Below are positions 11,544 through 61,473 of a DNA stretch of 64,000 nucleotides, in pieces. Each line of letters starts with the position of its first letter. Within the stretch, counting starts at the first letter, position 1. Source of the stretch: Eledone cirrhosa (taxonomy: Eukaryota); NCBI GenBank assembly GCA_964016885.1, contig OZ024755.1, forward strand, positions 42,284,001 to 42,348,000, given 5' to 3'. The translations under genes and the position numbers were made by a program. Below the pieces are notes generated by a model. The model was not told where the DNA came from. It searched no databases and saw only the letters and a list, made by a program, of their open reading frames with translations.

Positions 11544-11599
11544 ACTGCTATATATATTTCGATGATAGCCATTGAATGGCTATGACCTCATCAGGCAGT
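11544..11599 (-). ncRNA. Type I hammerhead ribozyme motif (Penelope-type minimal stem III)
   Basis: Minus strand: ACTGC-CTGATGA-ggtcatagcca ttcaa tggctatcatc-GAAA-TATATA-TA/GCAGT. Stems I and II pair; loop III is palindromic. Confidence 0.8.
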
Positions 11600-12869
11600 T
11601 AGTCAGTTCTTAGATATGCCAGCTCTGTGTTTATAGTGTTGATGGTATCAGAGCCTTGGGACATATGAGCTTGTTAGGGATAATTTAATGTTGTCAGCAG
11701 GAATAATCTTAATTCTAATAGGTCAGTTTGTAGATACTAGTAGGGTTGGTATTTGACCTCAAGAGGCAGGTGGTGTTGTAAAGTTCAAACCGTCAGGCAA
11801 GATGACAATAGTTCCATATGACTGATTTTCACAAAAAGCATTCCTGGTCAGATATATATTCAATTGAGGTTTATAGTATGAAATTGAGTGTATGCTTAAG
11901 AGTATATTTGTATATGCTCTCTTGCATGAGTGCACATGTGTATATAGACATACACGCGCATTCAGAGGTATAAACATGTGGGTGGGTATGTACTAACGGA
12001 TTCGCCTAAGCTCCAAAGCCCCCAAGCTATTGTTGTGAAGATATATATCACACTCTACTTTCGTCTAGTCTAAACAATAACTCTTCCAAACACCCACTTT
12101 ACTTTTCTTTAAAAATAACACCCACCAAGTTTTATGTCTGCCTTATACTTGGATTTGGGGGCCTCTGCTGTATATATATATGCACTTGTGCGTACATATA
12201 TATATATACACACCTGTATGGATTTGTGTGTGTGGATGTGTGTGTGTGTCTGAGGGGGTAGGTATGAGTGTATGTGCAAGTCAACCAACATAAGTCTTTT
12301 TATTTGTAAATTTTCTAGTATTCTACTCTAACCATAATTTTCAGTAGTACCACCCCACATAAATTCCTCAATTTAAGAATGACCTGTAGTATCTATTTCA
12401 TACTATAAACCTCAATGTTGTTCACTTGTCCCCCTCGCTTTACGCGATTTACTGGTCCCAATAACTTTTTTTAGTTATTGCTCGCACTAACCTGAGGTAT
12501 ATGATTTTTAATGCGATGAAATACCAATAATGGTTGGAAAATCACTGACGAAGGAGTATTTTTATCATATGTAACCCATGTGTAACCACGCAGTATTCTT
12601 CTTTCTTCTCATGTTATTTATATATATATGTATATATATGTGTGTAAATGAATGAAGTATTTCCGTCGGAAAGGTACAGGAAAAAAGAGTGCTCTATGTA
12701 GGCTACAGAGCTTATGTATATACATATCTTGTGTATTTGTTTATATTTAAGTTTGTTTTTATCCCCCCCCTCCCTCATCCGCCCCCACACTCACTCACAC
12801 CTATCGTGGTCAACACGTACCTCCCCTTCTTTTACTTTATTTTGTTTTTGTTTATATATATATATAATT

Positions 12870-15800
12870 AAAATAAGACTTGTCCTAAATAGAACTACTG
12901 TGACAGTAATATCTGTGTACGCACCCCAATCCGGACTGCCTGGCGTTATAAAAGACAGATTCTATGAGACATTGATGCTCACTACCTCCCAAATAACCGA
13001 CAGTGACTACATAATTATTACTGGCGACCTAAATGGTCACGTTGGACAACATTGTGATGGCTATGTCGGAATCCATGGAGGCTATGGGTTTGGTACTAGA
13101 AATGAAGAAGGCTCCAGAATCCTGGAATTCTGTGACGCAAATAACCTAACTATCTGTAACACTAACTTCAAAAAACGAGACCACTTGATCACCTATAGAT
13201 CAGGGGAACACGCCAGTCAGATAGATTATATCCTTACCAGAATATGTGATAGAGTGTTTGTTGTAAACACTAAATCCCTCCCCCATGAAGAATGCACCTC
13301 CCAACATAGACTCATAGTCAGGACAAGACGTACTCGACAACAGAGGAGGACTATCCGCAGGAGAAAAATATGGAAGCTAAAGGACCCTACAGCCAGTAAT
13401 AAATTTAAAAGCATATTACTTGATGCTTTTGACAGTAAGGAAGAGCAATTAGAGTCGTACAATATAGAGGAACAGTGGGAATTCCTGAAAGCTAAACTGC
13501 TGAAGGCGACAGATGAAGTCTGTGGCTGGAGCAGACCTATAGGCAGGAGGAGAGTAACGTGGTAGTGGAACAGTAAGGTGGAGGAGTCAATTAAGGCCAA
13601 AAAGCAGGCTTGGAAAGTATGGCGGGATGGGGGAAGTAGAGAAGACTATCAAGTGGCCAGGAGGGAAGCTAGGAGACAAGTGTACTTCGCAAGAAGGGAA
13701 GCAGAGGAAAGAAAGTTCAAGCATGTTCTACAACGCGAGGACCAAAAACGTGAGGTGTTCAGGATTGCTAGGCAATGTGTCAAGGAAAACCATGATATTG
13801 TCGGGGAGAAGTGTGTCCTTAATGATGATGGTGTACTTGCCATCACTGATGTTGATAAGAAGGTAGCTTGGAAGTGTCACTACGAAAGGCTACTAAATGA
13901 GGAGAATAATTGGGAGAAAGACAGTCTCCCCCACATCGACCCAATAGAGGGACCAGTAGTGCAAGTTGAAGGTAGTATAATAAGTAAGGCAGTCAGAGAT
14001 ATGAAGACGGTTAAGGCGGCTGGGCCTTCGGAAATAGTTGCTGAAATGCTGAAAGCATCTGGAACGGTGGGACACACTATGGTCACCTGGATAGTAAACC
14101 AAATCATACAGAATGGGGTCGTTCCGAAGGACTGGCGTAGCAGCATCATCATTAACTGCTACAAGGGTAAAGGAGATGCCCTAGATAGGGGTAACTATAG
14201 AGGCATTAAATTAATCGACCAGGTCATGAAGGTCACAGGAAAAGTAATAGCGCAACTAATCAGAGAGCGAATTGATCTAGATGAAATGCAGTTCGGGTTT
14301 GTGTCAGGTAAAAGTACCACAGACGCTCTTTTCATTGTACGACAACTACAGAAGTACCTAGCTAAAAGTAAACCCTATACTTAGCTTTTGTTGACTTGGA
14401 GAAAGCCTTTGACAGAGTCCCTCGCTCCATTATCTGGTGGGCTCTTAGAAAACTAGGTGTTGATGAATGGCTTGTGAGAGCTATACAAGCCATGTATAAG
14501 GAAACAGTCAGCAAGGTTAGAATTAACAACGAATATAGTGAAGAGTTTAGCGTAAAAGTTGGTGTTCATCAGGGCTCCACTCTTAGTCCCCTACTATTTA
14601 TTATTGCCCTTCAGGCTATAACAGAGGAGTTCAAGACCAGCTGCCCATGGGAACTCCTATAAACAGATGATTAACGCTCATAGCTGAATCAATGGCTGAA
14701 CTAGAGAAGAAATTCCAAACATGGAAGCATGGCCTAGAAACAAAAGGCCTTAAAATTAACCTGTCTAAGAGTAAAGTTCTAGTTTGTAGGAAGGAAAATA
14801 GGGCACCGGTCCCATCTGGTAAATGGCCATGCTCAGTGTGTAGGAAAGGAGTATGCAGAAACTCCATTTTATGTCCCAAATGCAAAGTATGGGTGCATAA
14901 AAGATGTAGTGGGATCACAGGTAAGCTAACTAAGAATATAGATTTTATATGTGGCCGGTGCTCAGGAGCAATAAGTAGCAGCAAGTGCCCACAGAATACT
15001 AGCTCATTCCATTGCACAGATGGTTCTATAGAAATAGTGGACACCTTCCGTTACCTGCGTGATAAAATCAGCAGTGGTGGAGGGTCCTCTGAAAGTATAG
15101 TAGCTAGAGTCAGAACGGGATGGAAAAAGTTCAGAGAGCTTATACCACTATTGGCCGCTAAAGGGTTCTCTCTAAAAATGAAAGGCAGGCTGTATGATGC
15201 CTGCATATGAACAGCAATGTTACATGGCAGTGAGACCTGGGCACTGTGTGCAGAGGATATACGCAGACTGGAGAGGAACGAAGCTTGCATGCTCCGCTGG
15301 GTGTGTAATAGTAATATACGTGAACGGCAAAGCATAAACAAACTAAGGGAGAAATTAGGAATAAGAGGGATCAGATGTTGTTTACTCGAGAGAAGACTAC
15401 GTTGGTACGGTCACGTGATGCACATGAAAGACAACAGTTGTATAAAAACGTGCAGGACGATAAAAATAGACGGTAGCCACGGAGTAGGCAGACCCAGAAA
15501 AACCTGGGACGACTTGATAAATTCCGACCTCACACACTTACACCTCTCCAAGACAATGACACTGGACCGAGATCTTTGGCGCTGCACAGTAATACAGAAG
15601 ATCCGCCTTGCCTAAGTACAAAGCGAAACCTACAGTCGCTAAGCACCTCTAACAAAAATACACTGTCCCACTACCCCCACCCCATCCACACCAACCCTTT
15701 TAATGTAAAGTTATGTTGGTACCACAACATCCAGTCCGAAACAAATGAAGTTGTGTAGGTGTCACAACAAAAAAAAAACACAGTCCACGCTGTAATGTGG

Positions 15801-16006
15801 CCATGTAGGTAACACGGTAAAAACCTCCCAGTCCACACTGTAAACGTGGTTGGTGTTAGGAAGGGCATCCAGCTGTAGAAAACCCGCAAGACAGTCCTAT
15901 ATGAGCAAGACAACCAATCTTACCTCAAGTGGGAAAATTCCCGTCCAAACCCATGCAAGCGTGGAAGATGGACGTTAAACGATGATGATGATGATGATGA
16001 TGATGA
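12870..16006 (+). mobile_element. 5'-truncated, disabled RTE-clade LINE (APE + RT with internal PHD finger), (GAT)n tail
   Basis: Motifs SVYAPQ, GDLNGHVG, SQIDYIL, NYRGIKL, QFGF, EKAFDRVP, GVHQGSTLSPLLF. The YADD motif is mutated to stop-TDD near 14660; several other stops and frameshifts. Confidence 0.93.
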
Positions 16007-16535
16007 TATATATATATATATGTATATAAGCAGAAGGGATATTTAATTTGTTGGAAATTCAACAAATATAAATTTATATAACTGATTCAGAGTACTTGAC
16101 AGATTTCTGGAGTAAATATTCAATGATATTAAATAAATGGAAACTATATTTAATATCATTGTATATATATATATATATATATATTGTTGTTCTTATTTAT
16201 TTTTTTATTTAGTTATTTCTGCTTGCTTACTACTTCCCAAATTTGAGTGTATATATCTGTGTATATGTATGTGTATTTATGTTCCTGTCCATATTTCTTT
16301 GTAGACACTAATACGTTTGTGTAAGTTTACGTCTATATACTTTTTAGTATATGCGCGTAGTTGATTGTGTGTATGTTTACGTTCTGGATATTTATATTTT
16401 TATTCTTATATTTATATATATATATTTTTTATTTTTTTCTCCTATTTCCTTTTCGCCCGTTTTTTTCAGCCTCACTTTCATATTTCCTAAATTTTATTTT
16501 CAAATCCATATTTAATAAAAACACCATGTTTTTCA

Positions 16536-16589
16536 TTCATTCTGATGACTGAAGACAGATCTGTCTTCAAGAAACCACTGGTAAATGAA
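16536..16589 (+). ncRNA. Type I hammerhead ribozyme motif
   Basis: TTCATT-CTGATGA-c-TGAAGACAGA/TCTGTCTTCA-a-GAAA-CC act GG-TA/AATGAA: 6-bp stem I, GUA cleavage triplet, C-A mismatch at the base of stem II. Confidence 0.75.
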
Positions 16590-16718
16590 ATAATTATCTT
16601 ATGTTGTTTATTACATAACTAATAAGCTCTGTAGCCTACATAGAGCACTGTTTTTTCCTGTACCTTTCCGACGGAAATACTTCATTTACACATATATACA
16701 TATATATATATATATATA

Positions 16719-17503: not shown

Positions 17504-17528
17504 ATATATATACGCACACACATATATA

Positions 17529-17860
17529 TATAATATAAAACGAAAAATCAGTGATGCATCTGAACTCAATTTATTGTGTGTTACAATTGTTTCACCGGTG
17601 GATAGCTCGAGACAGGATCATTGTGTGGACCTGCACGCTCGCCGGACACGTCTAATGATTTCGGAGCCAATTCTTTGCTCTGAAATCATTAGACGTGTCC
17701 GACGAGCCTGCAGATCCAGAATCAGACAGATCCACACAATGATCGTTCAGATGCATTACTGATTTTTCGTTTTATATTATATCATACTATGCTCTGTAAG
17801 AGCATAGAGTGCTCAACTGGCATACCGCCTATGGAAGCATCTTAGCTACCGTCAGACACA
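17529..17860. mobile_element. Palindromic Penelope-like terminal remnant (inverted repeat + long internal hairpin + tail)
   Basis: Arms ~17529-17565 and ~17745-17781; internal hairpin ~17617-17744; minus-strand hammerhead half GAAA-CAATTG-TA near 17582-17593. Confidence 0.6.
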
Positions 17861-18465
17861 CATATATATATATACAAATATATATATATACAAATATATA
17901 TATATTTATTTATTTATTTATTTATTTATTTATTAAAATAACAGATTAAAGTTTAAGCAAAGAATCGCTGCTTTCACCCTTAATGTGTTCTTCTGAATAT
18001 ATATATATATATATACTGCATCATTAGGTTATGACAGCATATTATTTAGAATAATTGTTTCTACTGGTGGCACAAGGCCAGGAATTATTCCAGTGCATTA
18101 CTGGTACTTTGTTTTATTAGAATAATGTTATGTAAATACAGCAGATTGTAAGATTTTGTGATAGCAAGACAATGACTTATGATGAAGTGATGTTGCTTCA
18201 TCTTAGTATTATACATGTTGTTCTATATAGATGGGGTATGATTACTGGCACCATATTACTATATTTAGAATGTGAAGGAGATACTGCAGGATTGTAACTG
18301 CTGAAAGAGGTCATCATCCCAGAACATAGAGTGCTGCTGTATAATGTCTGACCTAAATATCTTCCTAACTGGAACACTAAAAACTGTATATATTGAGTAA
18401 AAATAAGAAATAGAGACATACATATATATAAAAACTGTCTGTGGTAAAATTATAACATGGCACTA

Positions 18466-19601
18466 AAACAACACTATAACAACACTATAACAACACTTTA
18501 ACAACACTATAACACTATAACAACACTATAACACTGTAACACCACTATAATAACACTATAACACTACATTATAACACTATAATAACACTATAACAATACT
18601 ATAACAACACGATAACAACCCTATAACAACACTACAACACTATAATAACACTTTAACAACATTATAACAACACTATAATAACACTATAACAACTCTATAA
18701 CAGCACTATAACGCTATAACACTACAACAACACTATAACAACACTATAACACTATAACAAAACTATAACAACACTACCACACTATAACAACACTATAAAA
18801 CACTATAACAACACTTCCACACTATAACAACACTATAAAACACTATAACAACACTATAACACTATATCAACACTATAACACTATAACAACACTATAACAA
18901 CACTATAACACTATAACAACACTATAACAACACTACCACACTATAACAACACTACAACACTATAACACTATAACACTATAACAACACTATAACACTATAA
19001 CAACACTATAACACTATAACACTGTAACAACACTATAACACTGTAACAACACAACACTATAACACTATAACAACACTACAACACTATAACACTATAACAC
19101 TACAACACTAGAACACTGTAACAACACTACAACACTATAACACTATAACAACACTATAACATTATAACAACACTATAACAACACTATAACACTATAACAA
19201 CACTAACAAAACTATAACAACACTACAACACTATAACAAAACTATAATAACACTATAACACTACAACAACACTACAAAACTATAACAACACTACAACATT
19301 ATAACAACACTATAACACTACAGCACTACAACACTATAACAACACTACAACACAATAACACCACTACAACAACACTATAACAACACTATAACATTATAAC
19401 AAAACTATAACACTACAACACTACAACATTATAACAACACTATAACAACACTACAGCACTACAACACTATAACAACACTACAACACAATAACACCACTAC
19501 AACAACACTATAACAACACTATAACACCACTACAACAACAACACTATAACAACACTATAACACTACAACACTATTACAACACTACAACACTATAACAACA
19601 C
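18466..19601. repeat. AACACTAT / AACAACACTAT (8/11-mer) minisatellite
   Basis: Directly visible; the same repeat resumes at 24557-24753. Confidence 0.95.
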
Positions 19602-22600
19602 TCCTCCTGGTTGTCCATCGTAAACGATGGTGACATCTTCTTCATTGTTGTTCCCATTTGCCGTGGGTGTGAAGGTGGCTGTGGAGGCTGATTCTTGACT
19701 TACAGGTCCAAGGACAGTGGGGGCAGGGGAAGAGACCGGAGTCGCTTGGGGCAGCTGTTGATGCCTTTCTCCTCCTTTCACGGGCCTCAGTGACCTCTGC
19801 CCGTCTCTTATCTTCAAAAGAGCCTTTGGCACGTCTGGTAAGGGCTCCCCACTCAGTCCTGTCCTGAGCATGGGACTCGAGTTGTTTAGGGGCGATTCCA
19901 GTGTTGTTGATACTGGACTTTACGCAGTCTTTGAACCTCTTGAGAGGCCTGCCCCACTTTCATTTCCCGAACAGAGTCCCCCATACATCAGTTGCTTCGG
20001 AAGCCTGTGATCGTCTATCCGGATGACATGTCCCACCCATTGGAGTCGGCTCTTCAGTATCATAGCTTTGACACTGGTTGTCTCAGCCATGTCAAGAACT
20101 TCGAGGTTGGAGACCTTGTCCTGCCATTTGATGTTGATGATTGACCGCAGGCTGCACATGTGGAACCGTTCCAGCTGCTTCAGGTGCTTTCTCTACCGGG
20201 TCCATGTCTCACATCCGTAGAGGAGGTTGGTGAGAACAACAGCCCTGTACACCTTGAGCTTGGTGGACTGCCTGATGTTGTGCTGGTTCAGGACGCGTGT
20301 CCTCAGGCGGTTGAGGGCTTGACTGGCCTTGCAGATTCTGTCATTTATCTTCTTGTCGAGGCTTCCATCGCTGCTGATGACACTGCCGAGGTACTTGGAG
20401 TCATCCACCGTCTTTAGCTGGGTGCCTGAGATGGAAGGAGGGTGGGCGACGGAGGCAGGTGCAGGCTGGAACAGGACCTCAGTCTTGCTAAGGCTAATTG
20501 TGAGACTGAAGAGGCAGGAGGCCTCCGCGAACTTGTTGGCGATGACTTGGAGGTCAGACTCCCTGTGGGTCATGAGGGCACAGTCATCAGCAAAAAGTGC
20601 CTCCAGGACGATCCTCTGCACGGTCCTTGTCTTGGCCGTCAGGCGCCGCAGGTCAAACAGGGAGCCGTCCAGTCTGTATTGCAGATACACTCCGTGTTTG
20701 AGGTCCTTGACGGCATGATTGAACACACAGGTGAAGAACAGGTTTAAGAGAATGAGAGCCAGCACGCATCCTTGCTTGACGCCGTTGGTGATTCCGAACA
20801 GCTCCGATGCTTCTCCACCCGAGCGTACCTGCTTGATCATGTCGTCATGGAATTGCCGTATCAGGTTCACAAACTTGGTTGGGTATCCAAACTTCGACAG
20901 GATCGACCAGAGGGCCTCCCTGTTGACAGTGTCGAAGGCCTTCGTCAAGTCTATGAAGACGGCAAAGAGGTCCATGTTCTACTCGACACACTTCTCCTGC
21001 ACCTGGCGTACAGAGAAGATCATGTCGATCGTGCTGCGGTTTGGGTGGAACCCGCACTGGGCCTCAGGCAGGTTGTCCTCCGAGATGTTGGCGATGAGGC
21101 GGTTGAGCATGACCCGAGCCAGAACCTTCCCAGCGATGGACAGAGAGAGATGCCCCAATAGTTGCCACAGTCAGATTTGCTGCCTTTGTCCTTAAAAAGC
21201 GAGACAACTGTGGCATCCCTGAAGTCTTTGGGCACCTCTTCTTCCTCCCATATGCTGGCGAGGAGGGTGTGGAAGGCCCCCAGGGCAGCTGGATGGGCCA
21301 ACTTGAAGACCTCAGCAGGAATCCCATCCTTCCCAGGGGCCTTTCCTGAGCTGGTCTGGTTGATTGCCTTCGTGACTTCATACACCGTGGAGGGGGGGGG
21401 GGGGGGGGGTTGAGGCTACCAACTGCGGGTTTCTGTGGAACCTGGTCGAGGGCGGCAGGGTCGACAGTGGAAGGCCTGTTGAGCAGGTTGCTGAAGTGCT
21501 CTCTCCACTTCGAGTTGATGCTGCTCTTCTCCTTCAGCAGGGTCGAACCGTCAGCAGACAGCAGCGGTGTGGTGACAGGCTTGGGAGGTCCGTAGACATT
21601 GAAGAACATGAGAGCTTTGTGTCAGCATATCTCTCGACTTCTTCGGCCTTCTTCTCCCACCACTCATCCTGCATTCTGCGTAGAGCTGCTTGGGTCTGCC
21701 TCTAGAGGTGCTTGAAGCAGTCGCGCTTCGAGGGGGAGGAGCTGTCATTCTGCCACTCAATGAAAACTCTCCTCTTCTCGTCCAGGAGTTGTCTGATGCG
21801 CTCATCGTTTTCATCAAACCAGCCCTGCTGGACTCTCTTCCTCGGCCCAATGGTTGCCTTGCCTGACTCTGTCACCAGCGACCTGAACTGGTCCCACTGT
21901 TGAGTTAGGGGTCCGGTCAGTGGTCCATGGGCAGTCAGCTGGCCATCCAGGTCCTCCGTGAATGCATCACGATGCTCTGGCTGCTTGAGTCGTGCAACGT
22001 GGAAAGCTGGCCTACAGACTTTCGGAGTCTTGTGATGCGTCGGGGTGATGTGCAGTGACAGAATGGTCCTGACAAGGCAATGGTCGGTCCAACACTCTGC
22101 ACTACGCATGGCCCTGGTATTCTGACGTCACGGATGTCCCTCCTGCGGCATATGGCAAAGTCAATCAGATGCCACTGTTTGGATCTGGGGTGATCCATGT
22201 CGTCTTGAACTTGTCTGCCTGGCGGAACAGTGTGCTGGTGATGGTGAGGTCATTCTCGGTGCAGAAACTCAACAGTATGAGGCCAGAGTTAGAGTTCAGC
22301 TTCCCTGTGCCGTGAGGTCCTAGCATGCTTCTCCAGTTGCTGCTGTCAGACCCGACTCTTGCGTTGAAGTCCCCCAGTAGGATGAGTTTGTTGCTTGGGG
22401 GGGGGGGGACGCCCTTCACGAGTGCATTGAGTTCCTCGTAGAAAGCATCCTTTGCTTCATCGCTGCTGATGACTGTGACAAGCCGAAATGAGTCGAGGGG
22501 GAAGTGGAGTTTCATTAGCCGCTCACTCACAGGTGTTGGGAGGTCTGGTAACTGCTTGCAGAGTGAAGTCCTGATGCCCAGGCCTACCCCGTGGATTCTG

Positions 22601-23699: not shown

Positions 23700-23900
23700 T
23701 TTTTGGATGGCCGTTGACTCTTATGAGTTCTTCCGCCCTTTGTCAGGTTTTGTTTTTGTCCTGCAGGGTGTCCAAAACCACCCTCCTCACCAAGTTAACT
23801 TGGTGGGGTTGCCAGTTTAGTCACTGATGACCCGACCATGTGACAGGTTGTACTGGGTTACATGTTATCAGTAGCACTCAAGAGTGACCTGACATAAAAA
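23700..23900 (-). mobile_element. RTE-5'UTR-derived (Ceph-domain-like) SINE fragment
   Basis: The reverse complement of 23703-23790 aligns by eye with 54875-54965. Confidence 0.6.
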
Positions 23901-33155: not shown

Positions 33156-33239
33156 GTATACATACAGGCACACATACATACATATATATATGTATATATA
33201 CAGTATAAATACACACATATATATATTTATATATATATC

Positions 33240-33540
33240 AGGGATAACAAAATATTGTTGTAGGTAATCCAGTCCGGGGTTGTGAATACTTATTATGGAT
33301 AGTTTTATCGTACGGCGCTGTTTCACTCAACAAAAGGTTTACGTAGATGGCGAGTTTATGATTTCACTTGTATTCTTATGTAAGTTTATCTTGGAGTAAT
33401 AAAATTGAAAAAAGTGGAGAATAACATGGTCAACAGTACAATAAAGGGGATTTATTTACAGTCTAACAATTTTTTCTCTGATTGAGTTGTCTAAAAATTG
33501 CTGAACACTAGAAGCAGTGTCACTCAATTTCAAATATGAT
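33240..33540 (-). mobile_element. Penelope-like terminal remnant with hammerhead 3' half, cut by an RTE insertion
   Basis: Minus-strand GAAA-AAATTG-TT/AGAC near 33460-33476; TTGGAGTAAT motif at 33391; (TA)n flank. Confidence 0.45.
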
Positions 33541-34937: not shown

Positions 34938-35565
34938 GTTATTTCTACTTATGCTTGTCTCTCCCCTGTCTACCATCATTTTCCATATATTTTCTTCTCT
35001 TTATATTTTTCTTTGTAATAATTTTTCCTTTTTCTTTCTTTTTCTTTTTCCTTTTTTTTTCTTTCCTTTCTTTCTTTACTGTATCTCCGTTTCTTCCTTC
35101 TTTTCTCTCTCTATCTTTATTATTAATATTATTATTGATGATGTAATTTGAATTTGTAAATTTGCCGTTCTTATAAAAAACTGTGATGATGAATATATAT
35201 ACAGAAGATGATAGGGTATGTCATTGTGTAGGAATTAGGTTGTATATATATAACAGTTGTATTAAAATTGCTGAGAGAAAAAAGAAGACATCTTGCCTTA
35301 CTGTAACCTCAAATTCTGAAAATCTGAATTACCATGATGCTATCACAAAATATTGGAAATTGAATTTTCCGATAAATCCTATCGGACTAGCATTTATAGA
35401 TTTTGCTTACCTGTTAATTGGCGAAACATGTGTCAATTATGTAATAAATGTTAGTTCTTTAATTGTAAAATAGTTATTTTCATATTATATATATCTATAT
35501 CTATATATATATATATATATATATATACATGGTAAAAGGTAAACAGAAATAACAACACAATCAGT

Positions 35566-35624
<59 letters not shown>

Positions 35625-35765
35625 ACTATATGTTGGTTGTTTACTGACACCTCAGTATGCAGGTTGGAGCACTCGACGAAGTACGCAGGTTGGTTTGGTT
35701 ACTCTGGAGTAATATAAAATAATTAAGTCAAATATTTAAAATTTGGCTTCGTTTATTAAAGATGT

Positions 35766-35820
35766 ACTGCTATATATATTTCGGTGACAGCCATCATTGG
35801 CTGTGACCTCTTCAGGCAGT
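35766..35820 (-). ncRNA. Type I hammerhead ribozyme motif
   Basis: Minus strand: ACTGC-CTGAAGA-ggtcacagcca atga tggctgtcacc-GAAA-TATATA-TA/GCAGT; homologous to 11544-11599. Confidence 0.82.
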
Positions 35821-36665: not shown

Positions 36666-36680
36666 ATATATGTATGTTTG

Positions 36681-37723: not shown

Positions 37724-37815
37724 GTATAATGAAAAATTGAACAGGGACAGAACAGAGAGGCAGTACGATAAATGTTTATTAAATTCACGCTCAGGAGAGT
37801 GGGGGGTAGGTGGGG

Positions 37816-37851
37816 GACGATGTTTCGGGCATAAGCCCTTCTTCAGGTGAG
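37816..37851 (-). ncRNA. Hammerhead-like Penelope terminal motif with poor stem I
   Basis: Minus strand CTGAAGA-aGGGC ttat GCCC-GAAAC atc GTC; the downstream bases do not pair with the upstream CTCAC. Confidence 0.4.
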
Positions 37852-37879
37852 AGTTCAAAAGGTGTGTAGGGGAGTGGTG

Positions 37880-43417: not shown

Positions 43418-44531
<1,114 letters not shown>

Positions 44532-44565
44532 CAAAGAACGCCTATAGCATATGCATATCTTTACT

Positions 44566-44611
44566 TGCTAACATTGTTTCATCCGCACTATACGTGGGAC
44601 TCATCAGAGCA
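44566..44611 (-). ncRNA. Type I hammerhead ribozyme motif (inverted copy)
   Basis: Reverse complement of 44941-44986. Confidence 0.72.
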
Positions 44612-44940
44612 TAAAGGTTAATTACATACCACACAAGCAATAACAAATCCAAGACATTGAAGAATGAAAAATAATAGAAGATAAAGGAAGTAAAAGTAAA
44701 AATAAGAATAAAAATAGAAATAAAAATAAAAATAAAAATAAAAATAAAATATTTTTATTTCTATTTTTATACATATGTATGTATAAAAATACGAATAAAA
44801 ATAAAAATAAAAATAAAAATAAAATATTTTTATTTCTATTTTTATTCTTATTTTTACTTTTACTTCCTTATCTTCTATTATTTTTCATTCTTCAATGTCT
44901 TGGATTTGTTATTGCTTGTGTGGTATGTAATTAACCTTTA

Positions 44941-44986
44941 TGCTCTGATGAGTCCCACGTATAGTGCGGATGAAACAATGTTAGCA
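44941..44986 (+). ncRNA. Type I hammerhead ribozyme motif
   Basis: TGCT-CTGATGA-gtcc cac gtata gtg cggat-GAAAC aat GTT/AGCA; GUU cleavage triplet. Confidence 0.75.
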
Positions 44987-45143
44987 AGTAAAGATATGCA
45001 TATGCTATAGGCGTTCTTTGTTATTTATTATATCACGGCTCTGTCCTCAGACATCGAGCTAACCTTATACTGCCTGCTGGATAAGTGGAGTGTTATACAC
45101 CCCTGATCCTCTCCCTAGTATACTATATATATATATATGTATG

Positions 45144-45450: not shown

Positions 45451-45955
45451 GTATGTATATATATATATGTATGTATGTATATATATGTATGTATGTATAT
45501 ATATGTATGTATGTATATATATATATGTATGTATGTATATATATATGTATGTATGTATGTATATATATATGTATGTATGTATATATGTATGTATGTATAT
45601 ATATATGTATGTATATATATATGTATGTATATATATATGTATGTATATATATATGTATGTATATATATATGTATGTATATATATATGTATGTATATATAT
45701 ATGTATGTATATATGTATATATATATATGTATACGGATTAACAAATAATAGTTAAATGCAGTCCACTTAGGTGAAGTCCAGTTATGGTATTCCAGGTAGT
45801 GGATGATATTAACGCTTGGCTTGGTTTGACTCAACAAGGCGTTTTCATAGTGATGCTGCGGGTATGCTGTAATTCCTATGTTGTAAACACTTGGAGTAAT
45901 AATAAATCAGGAAAGAAGGTTTACATGGTTTGCTATACAAAAAAGTTTTTAATCA

Positions 45956-46068
45956 CATAGCTTACATTTGTTTCACCGAACTGGTATGTCTAGAGATCGC
46001 TATCCGCCTAATTTTGCGTCACTCGATCGCCAATACAGAATTATAACCAGTCAGATCTTCGGAGCATG
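45956..46068 (-). ncRNA. Variant hammerhead motif (inverted copy)
   Basis: Reverse complement of 49221-49333 except one A/G change in stem II. Confidence 0.55.
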
Positions 46069-46425
46069 CGAGAATGAAGAAAATACACAGGCAAGAAAAT
46101 AAAAGAAAATATGGAGTAGTTATGGCATTCAATTAGAACAATAAACAACAACAATTATTACAACAATGCTATCAATAAACTATTTAAGGAGACCCTGACA
46201 TTACTTAGGTGGGGGGTATATAATGTATCTAATGTTACGGCGTGAAAACCAGCTGTCATAAGGCAAAAAGTATCGTAGTGTGTATCAATTTTAAATTATA
46301 AAGATAAGCTAGTTTTTACAGTCTTTCTCTTCATCTTCAACCGTATACATGAGTGGGACCACTGTCAAAGCTCAATAGTTGTAGAGTTAATACAGAGGTT
46401 AACGAATTAATATACGCATATATCT

Positions 46426-46494
<69 letters not shown>

Positions 46495-46899
46495 AATATA
46501 AATACACATACACATATATGTGTACATAGACACATACATACACACTAATATACACTCGTACAAAAATATACATACATGCAAAGAGAAAAGCGTGCTAATT
46601 GTAATATGGCAAAAAGAAGGTAAAGTAACATTGTAGTAGTGAAATGAGAAAAACTAGGATCTAGGATCAAATGATTGCAGCAGCTGAGAAGGAGTAAGAT
46701 TGTTGGTAGATGAGGTATTTACAGACTATTGTGTGGTATAGACTTACTTAATGAATATATATTTTTTGTGGGTAGTAGGTATCCTAATTTAAAGCTATGT
46801 TATGTTGGTTCGATTCACGGAGGTTTGAATCTTATGAATTTAGTGGCTATTCTATGCCTGCAGAAGATAGATCTTTCTAACTTATTATTAAGTAGTCTT

Positions 46900-48474
46900 A
46901 ATAAGGCGCTTATATTTGCCCAAAATAACTCTGATCTTACCCATGATGAAATTGAAATAATAATAGCGGCTAGAAGGACTATCGTAAAATTTGAAAATAA
47001 CTACTGGGTAAGAAAGGATAGAATAAATAGCTTCGATATTACAATGGGTTCAAATGATTCTGCGCAAATTACAGATATCGTGGGGCTATTCATAGCACAC
47101 AACCTACATAAGGAATTCAGTAACCTCCAAGGAGGAATTTATAGGGACGACACGTTACTTATAGCTAGGAACCTAAATAACCAGAGCATGGAAAGACTAA
47201 GGAAAAATATTAGAATATTCTTCAAAAAACTAGGCCTAAGTATTACCTACGAACTAAACCATAAGAAGGTAAATTTTCTAGATGTAACTCTAAATCTAAA
47301 TACTGGATTAATAGAACCTTTCCACAAAAATAATGAAAATCTTGCCTACATTAGTTACAACTCAAATCACCCCAAATCCATAATTAAATCCATAGCACGT
47401 AGTATATCCCTCCGAATATCCCGCCTATCCTCAAACCTAGAAATCTTTAACGAGCATGCTGACTATTATAATGCAGCATTAAGTAGGGCCGGTCATAAAG
47501 ATAAACTACAGTATATAGTGAATAAGGACAACATAAACAATCCTAGTAATTTCTACTCCAACCGCTCACATAATAATAGGAATAGCTTGACTAGACATAG
47601 GGTTAGACATGTAACACCTAGAGTAAACGGCCAAATCACTAATAACGTAAACCCTAGAAACAATAGAAGAAACAGACAAAGGAAATACCTATGGTTCAAC
47701 CCAATATTCAACTCCTCTATAAAAACTAGACTGCCCTCTATATTCTTTAAACTAATAGATAAACACTTCCCTATCTCGCATAGATATCACAAACTACTCA
47801 ATAGATCTACTATAAAACTCTCTTTTTCAACAGCAGCTAACATAGAATCACACATACGCAAGATCAACCGCAGAAATATCTCAAGTAAATCAATTGCACC
47901 TATACATAAGCACAAACTCATCACAACATCACAACCACAAGCGCATACAAACGCGCAGCAGCAAAACCCCATTGGGCATATATCACAACCCACTTATAAC
48001 AGGGTACTAAATAGGAATGTAAAAGCTGCACATAATAGCGCCTCAAACTGCAACTGTCACCTCCCAGATAGGTGCCCATTGGCGAATAGATGTCTCGATT
48101 CGAGCCTGGTGTACATGTGCACTGTCATCTCGGGTAACTCCACTTGGAATTACATAGGATCCACCGCGGGTTCTTTTAAGAAAAGATGGTATGTGCACAG
48201 GCACTCGATGAAAAACCGAGCTCTTATGGGTTCCACCACCCTCGCCAGAAAAATATGGGAATTGAAGGACAGCAACGCTAGCTACACTATCAACTGGTCG
48301 AAGTTGTCGGCTGCTAAAACCTATAGTACAGGTATGTCCTATTGCGGGCTGTGTGATCTTGAGCTATTGTATATCCTTAGAAATGTTAAAAGACTACTTA
48401 ATAATAAGTTAGAAAGATCTATCTTCTGCAGGCATAGAATAGCCACTAAATTCATAAGATTCAAACCTCCGTGA
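46900..48474 (+). CDS. Penelope-like RT + GIY-YIG endonuclease, 5'-truncated, frame open
   Basis: ITMGSNDSAQITDIVG, IYRDD, VNFLDVTL, YISYNSNHP, WFNP; linker CNCHLPDRC (CxCx5C); LVYMC...YIGST...FKKRWYVH...CGLC. The first ~57 codons of the listed ORF come from the inverted arm. Confidence 0.9.
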   Translation, partial: NKALIFAQNNSDLTHDEIEIIIAARRTIVKFENNYWVRKDRINSFDITMGSNDSAQITDIVGLFIAHNLHKEFSNLQGGIYRDDTLLIARNLNNQSMERLRKNIRIFFKKLGLSITYELNHKKVNFLDVTLNLNTGLIEPFHKNNENLAYISYNSNHPKSIIKSIARSISLRISRLSSNLEIFNEHADYYNAALSRAGHKDKLQYIVNKDNINNPSNFYSNRSHNNRNSLTRHRVRHVTPRVNGQITNNVNPRNNRRNRQRKYLWFNPIFNSSIKTRLPSIFFKLIDKHFPISHRYHKLLNRSTIKLSFSTAANIESHIRKINRRNISSKSIAPIHKHKLITTSQPQAHTNAQQQNPIGHISQPTYNRVLNRNVKAAHNSASNCNCHLPDRCPLANRCLDSSLVYMCTVISGNSTWNYIGSTAGSFKKRWYVHRHSMKNRALMGSTTLARKIWELKDSNASYTINWSKLSAAKTYSTGMSYCGLCDLELLYILRNVKRLLNNKLERSIFCRHRIATKFIRFKPP

Positions 48475-48794
48475 ATCGAACCAACATAACATAGCTTTAA
48501 ATTAGGATACCTACTACCCACAAAAAATATATATTCATTAAGTAAGTCTATACCACACAATAGTCTGTAAATACCTCATCTACCAACAATCTTACTCCTT
48601 CTCAGCTGCTGCAATCATTTGATCCTAGATCCTAGTTTTTCTCATTTCACTACTACAATGTTACTTTACCTTCTTTTTGCCATATTACAATTAGCACGCT
48701 TTTCTCTTTGCATGTATGTATATTTTTGTACGAGTGTATATTAGTGTGTATGTATGTGTCTATGTACACATATATGTGTATGTGTATTTATATT

Positions 48795-48863
<69 letters not shown>

Positions 48864-49220
48864 AGATATATGCGTATATTAATTCGTTAACCTCTGTATT
48901 AACTCTACAACTATTGAGCTTTGACAGTGGTCCCACTCATGTATACGGTTGAAGATGAAGAGAAAGACTGTAAAAACTAGCTTATCTTTATAATTTAAAA
49001 TTGATACACACTACGATACTTTTTGCCTTATGACAGCTGGTTTTCACGCCGTAACATTAGATACATTATATACCCCCCACCTAAGTAATGTCAGGGTCTC
49101 CTTAAATAGTTTATTGATAGCATTGTTGTAATAATTGTTGTTGTTTATTGTTCTAATTGAATGCCATAACTACTCCATATTTTCTTTTATTTTCTTGCCT
49201 GTGTATTTTCTTCATTCTCG

Positions 49221-49333
49221 CATGCTCCGAAGATCTGACTGGTTATAATTCTGTATTGGCGATCGAGTGACGCAAAATTAGGCGGATAGCGATCTCTAGA
49301 CATACCAGTTCAGTGAAACAAATGTAAGCTATG
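49221..49333 (+). ncRNA. Variant hammerhead motif (CCGAAGA core, ~80-nt stem II region)
   Basis: CATGCT-CCGAAGA-t-CTGACTGGT...ACCAGTtCAG-t-GAAAC aaat GTA/AGCtATG. Confidence 0.58.
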
Positions 49334-49396
49334 TGATTAAAAACTTTTTTGTATAGCAAACCATGTAAACCTTCTTTCCTGATTTATATATATATG

Positions 49397-52932: not shown

Positions 52933-52934
52933 CG

Positions 52935-54430
52935 TATCTCTTTTACTCTTTTACCTGTTTCAGCCATCCGGCTGAGGCCATGCTGGGGCACCGCCCTTGT
53001 TGCTACACATTTTATCTCCAGCCTGTATAGGTTGGCCACTGGTGTAGAAGGGAGTTTGTTGCTGCTGCCCTTAGGTTTCCCTCGTGTCTTGCTGTGGGCT
53101 CATCCGGGATCCTGGATAACAAGGTGTCGAGATGTTTCTTAAAGACATCCACCTCCACGTCATGCAAGTCTCGCAGATGCCTCGGCAGCCTGTTGAAGAG
53201 TTGAGGGCCCTTGAATCCCAGGCTATTGCAATACCTGCTCCTTATTCTAGATGTGGAAGACGGGACCTTTGGCACCACACAGTGACGTCCTGTTCGACGG
53301 TTGGTCCAGCTCCCAATGCCAAAGTTTGGTGCTAGTCCCTCCAGGATTTTCCACATGTAGATCACTGCGTATCTCTCCCGTCTTCGCTCCAAGGAGTAGA
53401 GGTTCAGTTCCTTCAGCCTCTCCCAGTAGCTTGTCTCCCTCATCTTGGCAATCCTCTTGGTGTAGCTTCGCTGGATTGCCTCAAGCTCTGTGGTTAGTTT
53501 GACACTATGGGGTGACCACAGCTGGGAGCAGTAGTCCAGGCGGCTTAGGACAAAAGTCCTCCACAGTGTCAACATGGTGTCTCGATCTCTTGTAAGGAAA
53601 GTCCTCAAGATCCAGCCAGCGAATCGTCTACATGCTGTCGCCACCTTCATGATGTGTGAAGAAAAAGATGCATCATCGCTCATGTCTATGCCCAGGTCTC
53701 GTATCGATTTTGACACGGGGATATCGGTCCATCCTGGTCCTGTGTAGCTGTGTTCCGCTATATTTGTGTTTGTGTTTGCAGGTTTGTATTGTAGGGCTTG
53801 GAATTTGCCAGCATTAAACTGCATGTTGTTTTCTTCCGCCCATCTGTATATGGCATCCAGATCCTGCTGTAAGAGGGCAGCGTCAGCTGGGTTTTTGATT
53901 GCCTGTGCTACCTTAGTGTCATCAGCATAGCTAGTGAGGGATGTTGTTGCATGCACCACAGAGGGCATGTCCGAGAGAGCCACCAAAAACAGTAGTGGTC
54001 ACAGGACTGTCCCCTGAGGCACCCCACTTGTTATCGGTGTTTCCCTCGAGAGGGCCCCATTTGCTGCGACTGCCTGGCTTCTGTCCCTTAAGAAGCCATG
54101 CAGCCACTCACCTACTTTTCCAGTTATGCCGAGTCCGTGTAGTTTGTGACATATCATTCCGTGGTCGACCTCGTCAAAGGCCTTCGCAAAGTCAAGATAT
54201 ATCACGTCTACATGTGAGCTGTCTAGTAGTTGTCTCAGTACCCAGTCGTAGTGATGTAGCAGCTGTGTAAGGCAGCTTCTTCCTGGGCGGAAGCCATGTT
54301 GCGTGCTAGTCAGGCGGTCATTTTCTTCGAGGAAAGTGATTAGCTTCTTTCTGACGACTCGCTCCATGACCTTACTGATATGCGACGTCAGGGAGACTGG
54401 CCTATAGTTCTTGGCCTCCGCTCTACTACC

Positions 54431-54869: not shown

Positions 54870-55380
54870 GGTTTCTTGTGAGGAGGGTGACTTTGGACAT
54901 CCTGCAGGACTAAAAAAAACCTGTCAAAGGGCAAGGGAGCTCTTAAGACTCAATAGCCATCCAAAATCACGGGGAGAGATGACCCCTTAGCCTTTGTCAA
55001 GGCAGAATTCTAGGAGAAGGAAAACTCTGATATAACACCTGCAACCCTGATGGTATCCAATGATGTTGACTTGTTCTTCTTTTGGTAAATATCATCTTGG
55101 TTAAGAGAGTGGGACTGGCTTTGTGCAGTGCCTTTGCTCACTATAAAAGCTTCACAGCACAGGCATTGCTTTATATCTGGAGATCTCTCTGCACTTGTCA
55201 TCACATGGTACCATGAGCCCTGCACTATGTGTCAATAATGGTCACAAGTGTAGTCTTTGTACCAGAGTTTTCAAGTCGCTGGCTGGACTAAAAAGTCACA
55301 TTCGTTCAGCGCATCGGTAGGGGTTCTCCTACATGGATATAAAGTAGTGGCCGTACTCGAAAACGAGTTGGCAGCCACCA
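54870..55380 (+). mobile_element. Non-autonomous bipartite RTE-derived element (Ceph-SINE-like), longer copy
   Basis: Matches 42951-43410 and extends further 5'; that 5' part matches the reverse complement of 23703-23790. Confidence 0.7.
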
Positions 55381-57796: not shown

Positions 57797-58660
57797 ATAG
57801 AAAGATTTGAATGGATACAGTTTAGTTGAAAGGAATTTATTGACACGTGTTTCTATAACAGTTACATAACACCTAAACAGCTATCTACAAAACTTTTAGT
57901 TATGCAGACATTCAATATTTCAATGTTATTATTACTGTAACTGCACCTATCCTGACAACTGCCCCCTCGGCAATAACTGCCTGGAAAAAAATATTATTTA
58001 TAAGTGTACCATTAAATCCGGAGGCAACGAGTGGTATTACGTGGGATCAACGGCAACAACGTTTAAATCTCGATTGTATAGGCATTCTTACTCAATAAAA
58101 CACCAGAGCCAAAGAAATGTAACAACTCTAGCAGAAAAAGCTTGGACGCTCAGGGATAGCGATCAAAAGTTTACCCTAAAATGGGAAAAATTAGCTAAAA
58201 CCCAAAGCTTTTCCAGGAGCCAAAATTTCTGCAAATTGTGTAATCTTGAGATTTATTACATAATCACACACAAGAAGAAACTGCTGAATAACAGAATTGA
58301 ACGAACATTATTCTGCGTCACAGAACTAAAACCATTTTTTCCCACTACAAGCCGAATATTACATAAAAGAGGGACATCCCCCAACTATATAACCTTAATC
58401 TAGTTAGAAAAATATAAAAACAATCTCTTCTCAACATATATTAATAACCTTAAATTACCATACTAATAATGAAAAGATATGCTGATGAGAATAGGTACAA
58501 ATATGCGATAATGAATGTGTCTAAAAACGTCCATAAGTATGTATATATATGTGAAAATGTATATAAATAAGTAAATATATATATATGTTTGATGTGTATA
58601 GTTAGATGTAAGTGTATTCATGTATTAAAGTGCTTATATATATGTATATGCGTGTGTGTA

Positions 58661-58727
<67 letters not shown>

Positions 58728-58732
58728 TATAG

Positions 58733-58768
<36 letters not shown>

Positions 58769-59583
58769 GTGTATATGGATGTGTATGTATGTGTATGTGT
58801 GTACACATGGACTAGAGTATGTATGTATATATGTGTGTGTCTATACGTGTGTATATAAAGATAAGTTGAGTATGAAAATGTATACACATGAGCGCGTATG
58901 TATGTACATAAATACATGTGTGTATATATGTGTATGCATGTGTATATATATGTAAGTATGAATATGTGAATTGTGTGTATATGTATTTTGTAGAGGTGTG
59001 CAAATATATTTGTGTGTGAATGCGTGGGTGAAAGGATACGTACACTTGAAAGAAAAATTTAAGTCTGAATGTTAATTAAGTGCAAACACAAAACCAACCA
59101 CGCATATCTTCACTATCTCTAATCCTTCTATAGATTTAGAAAAATAACCAATAATATATTCTATAAAAAATGTCAAAACAACAGATGGGAATCTAATTAC
59201 TCACTGCCACCAAGAATTCTCACTGCTATCGAAAAACCACTCCTTCAACTATTCTTCTAACAACTTCACCCCTCCCTCCTAATATTCTCTATAAAAACTA
59301 AATAGTCCTCAGTAATATTATTCTGATGAAATGACAGTAAATAATAACATTGAAATATTGAATGTCTGCATAACTAAAAGTTTGTAGATAGCTGTTTTAG
59401 GTTATGTAACTGTTATAGAAACACGTGTCAATAAATTCCTTTCAACTAAACTGTAATCCATTCAAATCTTTCTATTTTTTCCGGATTACTTTTGGAACTA
59501 CAACTGGAACCGTCGAGCAAACTCTACGTGAGCTGATAATCTACTGTGTGTAATATTTATATTACAACACAACGGAAATACTG
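57797..59583 (+). mobile_element. Second Penelope-like element (probably Hydra clade): GIY-YIG remnant, 3'UTR, hammerhead and ~136-bp inverted duplication
   Basis: From 57936: CNCTYPDNCPLGNNCLEKNIIYKC...YYVGSTATTFKSRLYRH...CKLCNLE; arms 57797-57933 and 59340-59475. Confidence 0.87.
59318..59434 (+). ncRNA. Type I hammerhead motif with greatly extended stem II
   Basis: TTATT-CTGATGA-a-ATGACAGT...ACTGTTAT-a-GAAA-CACGTG-TC/AATAA; palindromic loop III, GUC triplet. Confidence 0.72.
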
Positions 59584-61044: not shown

Positions 61045-61079
<35 letters not shown>

Positions 61080-61081
61080 GT
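59584..61081. repeat. (TA)n/(TATG)n array
   Basis: Directly visible. Confidence 0.97.
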
Positions 61082-61205
61082 AGGAGGTGAGTTTTATTGT
61101 AGTACAATAAAGCAATGCAGATATCGGATAAGAAGCACTCTACAGTTTGTGGGACTGGAGTATGCATAATATAAGATCAAAAGATGGTTAAAGGAGTTCA
61201 ATATA

Positions 61206-61273
61206 TTTTATTATGCGCATTTCAAAAAACAAACATCATCAAACAATAATATTTGTGTTTTCATCAGATAAAA
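61206..61273 (-). ncRNA. Type I hammerhead ribozyme motif (inverted copy)
   Basis: Reverse complement of 61400-61466. Confidence 0.75.
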
Positions 61274-61399
61274 CAGGAGAACATGATATGAAGGCTAAAA
61301 AAACACTTGTTGATAGTGCAGTTTTAAATCAACATATCTGTTGATTTAAAACTGCACTATCAACAAGTGTTTTTTTAGCCTTCATATCATGTTCTCCTG

Positions 61400-61466
61400 T
61401 TTTATCTGATGAAAACACAAATATTATTGTTTGATGATGTTTGTTTTTGAAATGCGCATAATAAAA
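61400..61466 (+). ncRNA. Type I hammerhead ribozyme motif
   Basis: TTTTAT-CTGATGA-aaac ACAAATATTATT gttt GATGATGTTTGT tttt-GAAA-TGCGCA-TA/ATAAAA; G-U-rich stem II, palindromic loop III. Confidence 0.8.
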
Positions 61467-61473
61467 TATATTG

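What the first reader, a model, noticed from the sequence alone, without database searches (positions are those of the whole stretch)
11544..61473. (TA)n-embedded Penelope/hammerhead system: at least six hammerhead sequence families in 64 kb
Seen: complete type I hammerhead motifs (stem I, CUGANGA or variant, stem II, GAAA, minimal stem III, NUH) at 11544(-), 16536(+), 35766(-), 44566(-)/44941(+), 45956(-)/49221(+), 59318(+) and 61206(-)/61400(+), plus half-motifs near 8385/8462, 17582, 33460 and 57840. Nearly all lie in short islands beside (TA)n arrays, and stem sequences differ between families while the core is kept. Two islands still encode GIY-YIG with a CxCx5C linker. Established: Penelope-like elements carry minimal hammerheads in their pseudo-LTRs; CxCx5C plus (TA)n targeting is, as I recall, the Hydra clade signature (verify). 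Inference: a diverse radiation of ribozyme-bearing, microsatellite-targeting retroelements in this genome, mostly as non-coding remnants that repeat annotation would miss.
Basis: partly seen in the sequence, partly recalled or inferred. Interest (0 to 1): 0.82.

Follow-up and report, generated by a model that had tools for sequence, protein, structure and literature searches.

The report
Hammerhead ends of Hydra-type Penelope retroelements
The short islands between the TA repeats carry hammerhead-ribozyme motifs, two families of them directly behind protein remnants with the marks of a known group of jumping genes (Hydra-type Penelope elements) and the rest likely end pieces of the same kind; self-cutting is predicted, not tested, and a small hairpin beside the copy ends likely tells the copying enzyme where to start.

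Summary
Observation confirmed. All ten type I hammerhead motifs are present and far above chance (6 strict hits against a mean of 0.007 in 300 shuffles). An independent model built from other animals' Hydra hammerheads ranks eight of them first. They are 7 insertions in 6 sequence families, because three pairs are mirror-image arms of one insertion. Both endonuclease remnants carry the Hydra-clade marks. The Hydra clade, its hammerheads and its (TA)n preference are published, including an octopus family (Craig 2021), so these are new members of a known kind. Only two families are tied to a reading frame; Hydra membership of the other four is inferred. Two extras: (1) the two ORF-linked hammerheads have stem II regions of 81 and 88 nt against 10-25 nt in 40 outside Hydra loci, and read variants spare the fold; (2) in six two-armed insertions one arm stops 1-9 nt before a hairpin conserved in 19 of 25 outside loci, a likely reverse-transcription start signal. 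This scan found the same population, hairpin and two-armed footprint before on other DNA of this genome. Cleavage and genome-wide enrichment could not be tested.

The parts
45734..49387 (.). Two-armed Hydra-type insertion: inverted 3' arm (45734-46899, minus strand) joined head to head to a 5'-truncated RT-EN frame plus 3' repeat; TA arrays at both outer ends
   Evidence: arms 45902-46899 and 48390-49387 match at 997 of 998; junctions
46897..48474 (+). Open, 5'-truncated RT (YRDD) plus CxCx5C linker plus GIY-YIG-type endonuclease with CxxC and CxH, no CCHH; the first 62 aa of the stop-to-stop frame (from 46714) come from the inverted arm
   Evidence: profile match starts at position 264 of about 700
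49224..49329 (+). Hammerhead, U4C core, 3-bp stem I, 81-nt stem II region, GUA site at 49326; short end at 49387
45960..46065 (-). Inverted twin of the 49224 hammerhead; this arm runs 168 nt further (tail, to 45734) and carries the tail hairpin with an enlarged loop (45826-45897)
57797..59581 (.). Second two-armed Hydra-type insertion: inverted short arm 57797-57938 with the 3' half-hammerhead, endonuclease remnant, 3' repeat split by TA/TG repeats, tail to 59581
57936..58316 (+). Endonuclease remnant, CxCx5C linker, CxxC; frame breaks at the CxH motif; 46% identical to the 46900 endonuclease
59318..59434 (+). Hammerhead, canonical core, 5-bp stem I, 88-nt stem II region, perfect palindromic helix III, GUC site at 59429
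   Evidence: (z -2.33)
44524..45123 (.). Non-coding fold-back insertion with twin hammerheads 44566-44611(-) and 44941-44986(+); short end 44524, tail with GCTC..GAGC hairpin at about 45037-45058
61086..61473 (.). Non-coding fold-back insertion with twin hammerheads 61204-61275(-) and 61398-61468(+); 8-bp stem I, perfect palindromic helix III that is not of the AC..GT type
16536..16686 (+). Hydra-type hammerhead (best model match) with GCTC..GAGC hairpin 42 nt behind the cleavage site; a 62-nt inverted copy of its 3' end lies at 12651-12712
11506..11599 (-). Hammerhead 11544-11599 ending 51 nt before a TA array; same family as 35766
35627..35820 (-). Hammerhead 35766-35820 plus tail; stem II differs from 11544 by pair-keeping changes (seen in the sequence)
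   Evidence: (z -3.05)
8239..8525 (.). Fold-back with two 3' half-hammerheads; left arm ends at (TA)n, right arm at (GA)n
17528..17856 (.). Two-armed remnant: 3' half-hammerhead at 17582(-); right arm carries a GCTC..GAGC hairpin (17782-17812, z -3.55)
33236..33480 (-). Decayed half-hammerhead and tail related to the 45960 family (63% over 186 nt)
35312..35438 (+).
   Evidence: relaxed search; shuffle mean 0.06 at that setting; fold does not give the hammerhead shape
37815..37852 (-).
   Evidence: weak model match E 2.7

Best explanation
The islands carry type I hammerhead motifs beside (TA)n arrays, two families lie directly behind Hydra-type endonuclease frames, and all are likely 3' ends of Penelope-like retroelements pasted into TA repeats by target-primed reverse transcription. 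Inferred steps: (1) the GIY-YIG endonuclease with its CxCx5C linker cuts AT-rich (TA)n DNA; (2) both DNA ends prime copying of the element RNA, starting at internal sites 45-60 nt and 100-230 nt behind the hammerhead, the first just 5' of a conserved CTC..GAG hairpin; (3) copying usually stops early, and the two products join head to head, giving two-armed insertions with one short and one tailed end, most with no ORF; (4) the hammerhead, with a short palindromic helix III, would cut as a dimer in tandem transcripts or with help from the element's protein. The two ORF-linked families form a host-lineage Hydra subgroup whose hammerheads have an enlarged stem II kept under structural selection. 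Shown here: motifs, ORF marks, arm geometry, hairpin position and conservation. Not shown: cleavage, expression, start-site function.
For: Motif excess over shuffles and independent model ranking. Hydra marks in both endonucleases; all 55 homologs at E<=0.001 came back from one search, and the 47 with a full endonuclease end carry the CxxC-before-E mark; the two window endonucleases are sisters (SH-aLRT 97). In outside Hydra loci a sense hammerhead follows the ORF in 40 of 62 tested (1 antisense; ORF-internal control 2 of 72 sense, 0 antisense), with strong covariation. Helix III is self-complementary in all 8 distinct motifs folded (duplex -0.7 to -10.5 kcal/mol). Six two-armed insertions have one arm ending 1-9 nt before a hairpin start held only by the other arm; RCTC..GAGY hairpin in 19 of 25 distinct outside loci against 4.7% in shuffles, a second copy in 13 of 22 against 6.7%. 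Public DNA runs show the 45956 family is multi-copy (746 contigs in X2, 4699 reads in X11) and 249 reads plus one contig run from the short end at 45902 into (AT)n. Of 18 listed variable positions in that hammerhead, 15 are unpaired, 2 keep a pair, 1 breaks one (P 0.004 for at most 3 paired). Published: Hydra definition and TA preference (PMC8557442); both-strand nicking and extension, two internal start sites and protein-assisted hammerhead in the anole element (PMC11167929).
Against: Four of six families have no ORF beside them (a Hydra profile finds only the two known frames in six-frame translation), and two of these (11544/35766, 61206/61400) have a helix III unlike the AC..GT form of outside Hydra loci and score weakly with the model (E 0.07-0.9). 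The tree has no outgroup from other clades. RWK and DKT cannot be checked in the truncated frames. Monomer folding energies are mostly not better than shuffles (z -0.4 to -3.05). The 45956/49221 core is U4C, a change said to lower activity considerably in vitro (PMC3088659), with a 3-bp stem I and the weakest helix III duplex. The hairpin pattern matched at the expected place in only 4 of 8 window tails; the enlarged forms at 45960 and 33460 are not significant by energy (z -1.19, +0.63). Only 10 of 40 outside hammerheads show a TA run within 260 nt (many contigs end or run on). 9 of 11 LINE-type islands that I picked also touch a TA run. The variant table showed 40 of 154 rows, and RAD reads may come from few loci. 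In the anole element hammerhead cutting was not needed for insertion in vitro.
Confidence: 0.85

Rival explanations
1. Some or all of the four ORF-less families (11544/35766, 16536, 44566/44941, 61206/61400) are non-autonomous hammerhead elements (retrozyme-like) that borrow a Penelope enzyme, not truncated ends of coding elements.
For: No ORF remnant beside them; atypical helix III in two families; they keep the tail hairpin that a borrowed enzyme could read; retrozymes are reported as non-autonomous derivatives of Penelope pLTRs (bioRxiv 10.64898/2026.07.22.740005, part 1 of 5 read).
Against: No tandem monomer arrays with hammerheads in this window; 16536 and 44941 match the model of coding Hydra elements strongly; short 5'-truncated copies are expected from coding elements too.
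Confidence: 0.3
2. The TA link reflects a general sink or later array growth, not targeting by the Hydra endonuclease.
For: 34% of the window is microsatellite (21,538 of 64,000); 9 of 11 LINE-type islands touch TA runs too (islands were partly defined by the arrays); one arm ends in (GA)n.
Against: The link is directional and at a fixed distance (15 of 16 arms); other copies join (AT)n at the same base; TA preference is published for 26 of 27 listed Hydra families.
Confidence: 0.12
3. The mirror-image arms come from a template switch or fold-back during one copying event, not from priming at both DNA ends.
For: Two insertions are near-perfect hairpins with no spacer (44524-45028, 61199-61473); inverted truncated copies are a general Penelope feature whose origin is not settled.
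Against: The two outer ends differ in a fixed way (short and tailed), which fits two separate starts; the anole enzyme extends both strands in vitro.
Confidence: 0.3
4. The motifs are chance matches in AT-rich DNA.
For: Folding z-scores of several motifs are weak; Rfam finds none.
Against: 6 against 0.007 in shuffles; independent model ranking; Rfam is also blind to canonical outside Hydra hammerheads (0 matches in 4 loci).
Confidence: 0.01

Closest known systems
Hydra clade of C-terminal EN+ Penelope-like elements, including Hydra-1_Obim of Octopus bimaculoides (Craig et al. 2021, PMC8557442; abstract, passages, section 11, supplement parts 1, 2, 7, 52 of 59 read)
   Same: RT followed by CxCx5C linker and GIY-YIG endonuclease with CxxC and CxH, no CCHH; hammerhead in the 3' repeat with palindromic AC..GT helix III; insertion in (TA)n; inverted truncated copies.
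   Different: Different families: by eye the RT stretch and hammerheads do not match Hydra-1_Obim. Stem II regions of 81 and 88 nt exceed all Hydra entries in file S2 and all 40 outside loci (10-25 nt). U4C core in one family. Tails of 100-170 nt against the 30-40 bp described.
Minimal type I hammerheads of metazoan Penelope-like elements (Cervera and de la Pena 2014, PMC4209133; parts 1-2 of 4 read)
   Same: Short stem I, extra nucleotide after A9, palindromic helix III, many diverse families per genome, mostly single remnants, pairs on opposite strands 100-700 bp apart.
   Different: Longer helix III palindromes (7-10 nt) and much longer stem II in three families here.
Poseidon element PAc of Anolis carolinensis (Frangieh et al. 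2024, PMC11167929; parts 1-2 of 4 read)
   Same: Two fixed 3' ends behind the hammerhead (tail), AT-rich target, a stem-loop at the start region.
   Different: Other clade; start sites 30-40 nt apart and inside the ORF; stem-loop is AC-rich, not CTC..GAG.
Metazoan non-LTR retrozymes (Li, Clavereau and Pollet 2026 preprint, part 1 of 5 read; Cervera and de la Pena 2020, PMC7229834, search listing only)
   Same: Non-coding units with a type I hammerhead related to Penelope pLTRs.
   Different: Defined by tandem monomers each with a hammerhead; none here.

Membership tests
Hydra clade PLE | Single ORF, RT followed by C-terminal GIY-YIG endonuclease | tested here: met
   46897-48474; Pfam gave no hit on P0001 but GIY-YIG on homolog P0010
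Hydra clade PLE | CxCX5C linker | tested here: met
   both frames
Hydra clade PLE | No CCHH; CxxC and CxH flanking the conserved E and N | tested here: met
   46897 frame has both; 57936 frame has CxxC and breaks at CxH
Hydra clade PLE | N-terminal RWK and DKT motifs | not testable with these tools
   both frames are 5'-truncated; most full-length homologs carry them
Hydra clade PLE | Hammerhead in the 3' repeat | tested here: met
   49224 and 59318 lie 750 and about 1000 nt behind the frames; variant forms
Hydra clade PLE | Insertion in (TA)n | tested here: met
Hydra clade PLE | RT phylogeny groups with Hydra apart from Neptune, Nematis, Penelope/Poseidon, Naiad | tested here: inconclusive
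   endonuclease tree nests both among Hydra-type homologs but has no outgroup; reference sequences of other clades were not available as tool inputs
Hydra clade PLE (four ORF-less families) | Link to a Hydra ORF | tested here: inconclusive
   no frame beside them; 16536 and 44941 fit the Hydra hammerhead model, 11544/35766 and 61206/61400 weakly
Type I hammerhead ribozyme | CUGANGA, GAAA, NUH core with stems I-III | tested here: met
   8 of 10 motifs canonical; 2 (one family) U4C
Type I hammerhead ribozyme | Self-cleavage | not testable with these tools
   needs an in vitro assay
Neptune, Nematis, Penelope/Poseidon | CCHH motif in the endonuclease | tested here: not met
   against the definition
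Naiad/Chlamys | N-terminal endonuclease, no canonical hammerhead | tested here: not met
   endonuclease is C-terminal; only the 37846 core resembles their 'HHR_core' class
Non-LTR retrozyme | Tandem monomers each with a hammerhead | tested here: not met

The most novel reading that the evidence does not exclude
A host-lineage Hydra subgroup has enlarged its hammerhead stem II to 80-100 nt and keeps it folded, and all these families, coding or not, share a CTC..GAG tail hairpin that the reverse transcriptase binds to start copying a few bases upstream, from both ends of a cut TA array; the hairpin, not the ribozyme, would be the passport that lets unrelated non-coding hammerhead families use the Hydra enzyme.
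Probability: 0.4. Interest if true: 0.55.

Novelty: new member of a known kind. Interest (0 to 1): 0.3.

Why it matters
What could matter is the detail: a conserved hairpin at a fixed distance from copy ends gives a direct test of how Penelope reverse transcriptases choose internal start sites, shown so far for one lizard element only, and long stem II hammerheads escape both Rfam and short-stem descriptors, so ribozyme counts in such genomes are probably too low.

Tried and rejected
Genome-wide test: no whole genome is held. Rfam: 656 matches on the whole window, the 150 shown are microRNA-type hits on TA repeats and none is a hammerhead; focused scans of 44530-45125 and 35100-36000 gave no hammerhead; four outside Hydra loci gave 0 matches. 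Pfam: no family on P0001 or the 57927 frame. Close relatives of P0001 in metagenome contigs: 76 pattern matches, none confirmed. Sequencing runs: no RNA holder listed. A short-stem reading of 59318 with G at position 17 was rejected in favour of the long-stem reading. A minus-strand match at 16484-16574 has one Watson-Crick pair in stem I and was rejected. Read starts at 46065 in run X11 fall on a GCATGC site and are likely a restriction-library artefact. A-to-G editing marks between arms: none (0-7 mismatches per pair, no polarity). Coding remnants upstream of 11544 and 35766: no Hydra profile match and no shared DNA beyond simple repeats. A coding reading of the 45960 tail: profile E 13, rejected. 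MAFFT alignment of eight tails was uninformative except for 45960/33460. Lunse et al. 2017 on dimeric Penelope hammerheads is not held and is only recalled. Searches for long stem II with Penelope (0 papers) and for Hydra, tail and start site (only Frangieh 2024 relevant) found no description of these features; subscription papers and unread supplements may hold one.


Full report
Setting. The window is animal DNA, 34% microsatellite (21,538 of 64,000 bases masked), with long TA-type arrays broken by short islands. No whole genome is held. The host is probably an octopus; this is an inference from the repeat types, from the published octopus Hydra family and from earlier notes of this scan, and I did not test it.

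Observation. Two descriptor searches give stem I of 3-8 bp, a CUGANGA core (U4C in the 45956/49221 family), stem II regions of 20-88 nt, GAAA, a self-complementary helix III of 7-9 nt and an NUH site. Six strict hits stand against a mean of 0.007 in 300 dinucleotide shuffles, nine relaxed hits against 0.13; the descriptor was tuned after I saw the motifs. Self-comparison shows that three pairs are inverted twins and that 11544 and 35766 are one family, so ten motifs are seven insertions in six families. Rfam does not see them, nor canonical outside ones.

The proteins. The stop-to-stop frame 46714-48474 includes 62 aa read from the inverted arm; the true remnant starts near 46897, at position 264 of a profile of about 700. 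It has YRDD, a CxCx5C linker, a GIY-YIG-type endonuclease, CxxC before the conserved E, CxH after the conserved N, and no CCHH. These are the Hydra marks given in Craig et al. 2021, section 11. One search returned 55 homologs at 28-41% identity; full-length ones mostly carry RWK and DKT. The second remnant, 57936-58316, is 46% identical over 127 aa. In a tree of 49 endonuclease rows (2 window, 47 homologs; 8 homologs lacking the full region left out) the two are sisters with SH-aLRT 97, with no outgroup. The paper's supplement lists Hydra-1_Obim from Octopus bimaculoides with (TA)n preference and a hammerhead, and (TA)n for 26 of 27 Hydra families. By eye its RT and hammerhead differ from those here, so these are other families.

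Link between ORF and hammerhead. Of 78 outside loci, 72 reach the ORF end and 62 have at least 150 nt behind it; 40 of 62 carry a sense hammerhead there, 1 an antisense match, and ORF-internal controls give 2 of 72 and 0 of 72 (the 40 include near-duplicates). Their stem II regions are 10-25 nt. The two ORF-linked window hammerheads have 81 and 88 nt, folded as long or nested helices, and 61398 has 36. A looser look at the 22 loci without a hit showed mostly damaged short forms or contig ends.

TA arrays. A (TA)5 run begins within 160 nt 3' of the cleavage site for 9 of 10 motifs and within 236 for the tenth; the background is 13.3% of non-array positions (9.8% left half, 20.1% right half), and the 3' distance is the shorter one for 15 of 16 arms. 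In public DNA runs the 45956 family is multi-copy, and 249 reads of X11 and one contig of X1 pass from base 45902 into (AT)n, so other copies end at the same base in TA repeats; RAD reads may stem from few loci. Against specificity, 9 of 11 LINE-type islands that I picked also touch a TA run (one has an RVT_1 match; the label RTE for others is recalled), and only 10 of 40 outside hammerheads show TA within 260 nt.

Geometry. Six insertions have two arms pointing outward (8239-8525, 17528-17856, 44524-45123, 45734-49387, 57797-59581, 61086-61473). Arms are 96-100% alike where aligned, so the insertions are young. One arm ends 11-61 nt behind the cleavage site, the other 126-229 nt behind it. 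The short end lies 1-9 nt before the start of a hairpin that only the long arm carries, usually after a TAT that merges with the array. The same RCTC..GAGY hairpin stands 31-85 nt behind the cleavage site in 19 of 25 distinct outside loci (shuffles 4.7%), and a second copy follows in 13 of 22 (6.7%). In the window the strict pattern fits at the expected place in 4 of 8 tails; the others are variants, two with a loop of about 55 nt that is not significant by energy. I found the first hairpin; the idea of a second copy and the wording of copying from both ends of a break came from earlier notes of this scan, which I then tested in part.

Selection on the fold. Among the 40 best-supported of 154 variant rows, 18 fall in the 45955-46070 hammerhead: 15 at unpaired places (one is the cleavage-site base, which stays an H), 2 keep a pair, 1 breaks one, none in the core (P 0.004). 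330 reads show a sister form with a canonical CUGAUGA core. Whether U4C is typical of this subfamily could not be read from the rows shown; U4C is reported to lower activity in vitro (PMC3088659, passage).

Mechanism. Most likely the endonuclease nicks (TA)n DNA, both ends prime reverse transcription at internal sites next to the hairpin, copying stops early and the products join head to head. This follows the anole Poseidon element, which nicks and extends both strands, starts at two internal sites matching the genomic tail, and has a protein-assisted hammerhead not needed for insertion in vitro (PMC11167929). The palindromic helix III points to dimer cleavage, as shown weakly for other Penelope hammerheads (PMC4209133). 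Cleavage, expression and the hairpin's role are inferred.

Novelty. Hammerheads in Penelope-like elements, their diversity within a genome, opposite-strand pairs and lone remnants are in Cervera 2014; Hydra with TA targeting in octopus is in Craig 2021. A 2026 repeat annotation of Octopus vulgaris lists 31 recently active Penelope-like families and does not mention hammerheads or Hydra in its main text (PMC13282606, passages); the giant squid genome paper counts 235 Rfam hammerheads (PMC6962438, passage). My searches found no account of long stem II Hydra hammerheads or of the tail hairpin; papers and supplements outside the library may. This scan has noted the same population many times in this genome (unchecked notes). 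Verdict: real, new members of a known kind, with two modest extras. Interest 0.3.

Noticed in passing
window 37815-37852 (-): Hammerhead core with a perfect GC stem II and GUC site but both stem I strands pyrimidine-rich, in a 151-nt island between TA arrays; resembles the Naiad 'HHR_core' class or the rearranged forms in earlier scan notes.
   Followed up: partly
window 35312-35438 (+), with inverted repeat 34568-34616 / 35117-35165: Possible decayed long-stem hammerhead (G8A) ending 67 nt before a TA array.
   Followed up: partly
window 39200-40636 (+) and 49737-50814 (-); 52933-54430 (-): Young LINE fragments (first two 99.5% identical over 1078 nt; RVT_1 match) embedded in TA arrays at both ends, so at least one LINE family also sits in these arrays.
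   Followed up: partly
window 42951-43414, 54876-55378, 36512-36678, 23701-23790: Another repeat family, 97-99% identical among three copies, mostly flanked by TA arrays; not identified.
   Followed up: no
window 4402-5339: About 940-bp element with 205-bp terminal inverted repeats (203 of 205 alike), MITE-like, directly after the 4.4-kb TA array.
   Followed up: no
window 17626-17718, 9914-9978, 11256-11284: Short strong palindromes next to or inside TA arrays; 17626-17718 folds at z -6.1 with its flank. Possibly fold-back junctions of further insertions.
   Followed up: no
window 16625-16686 and 59572-59581; L076, L077: A shared ACGGAAA word near the long ends of two unrelated window families and behind the hairpin in two outside loci.
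   Followed up: no
window 18461-19602 and 24556-24753: Minisatellite built from AACACTAT/AAC units, unlike the TA arrays.
   Followed up: no
L014, L050, L071, L077 downstream of the ORF: In outside Hydra loci the second tail hairpin is followed within about 25 nt by an ATGGA that looks like the next unit's ORF start.
   Followed up: no
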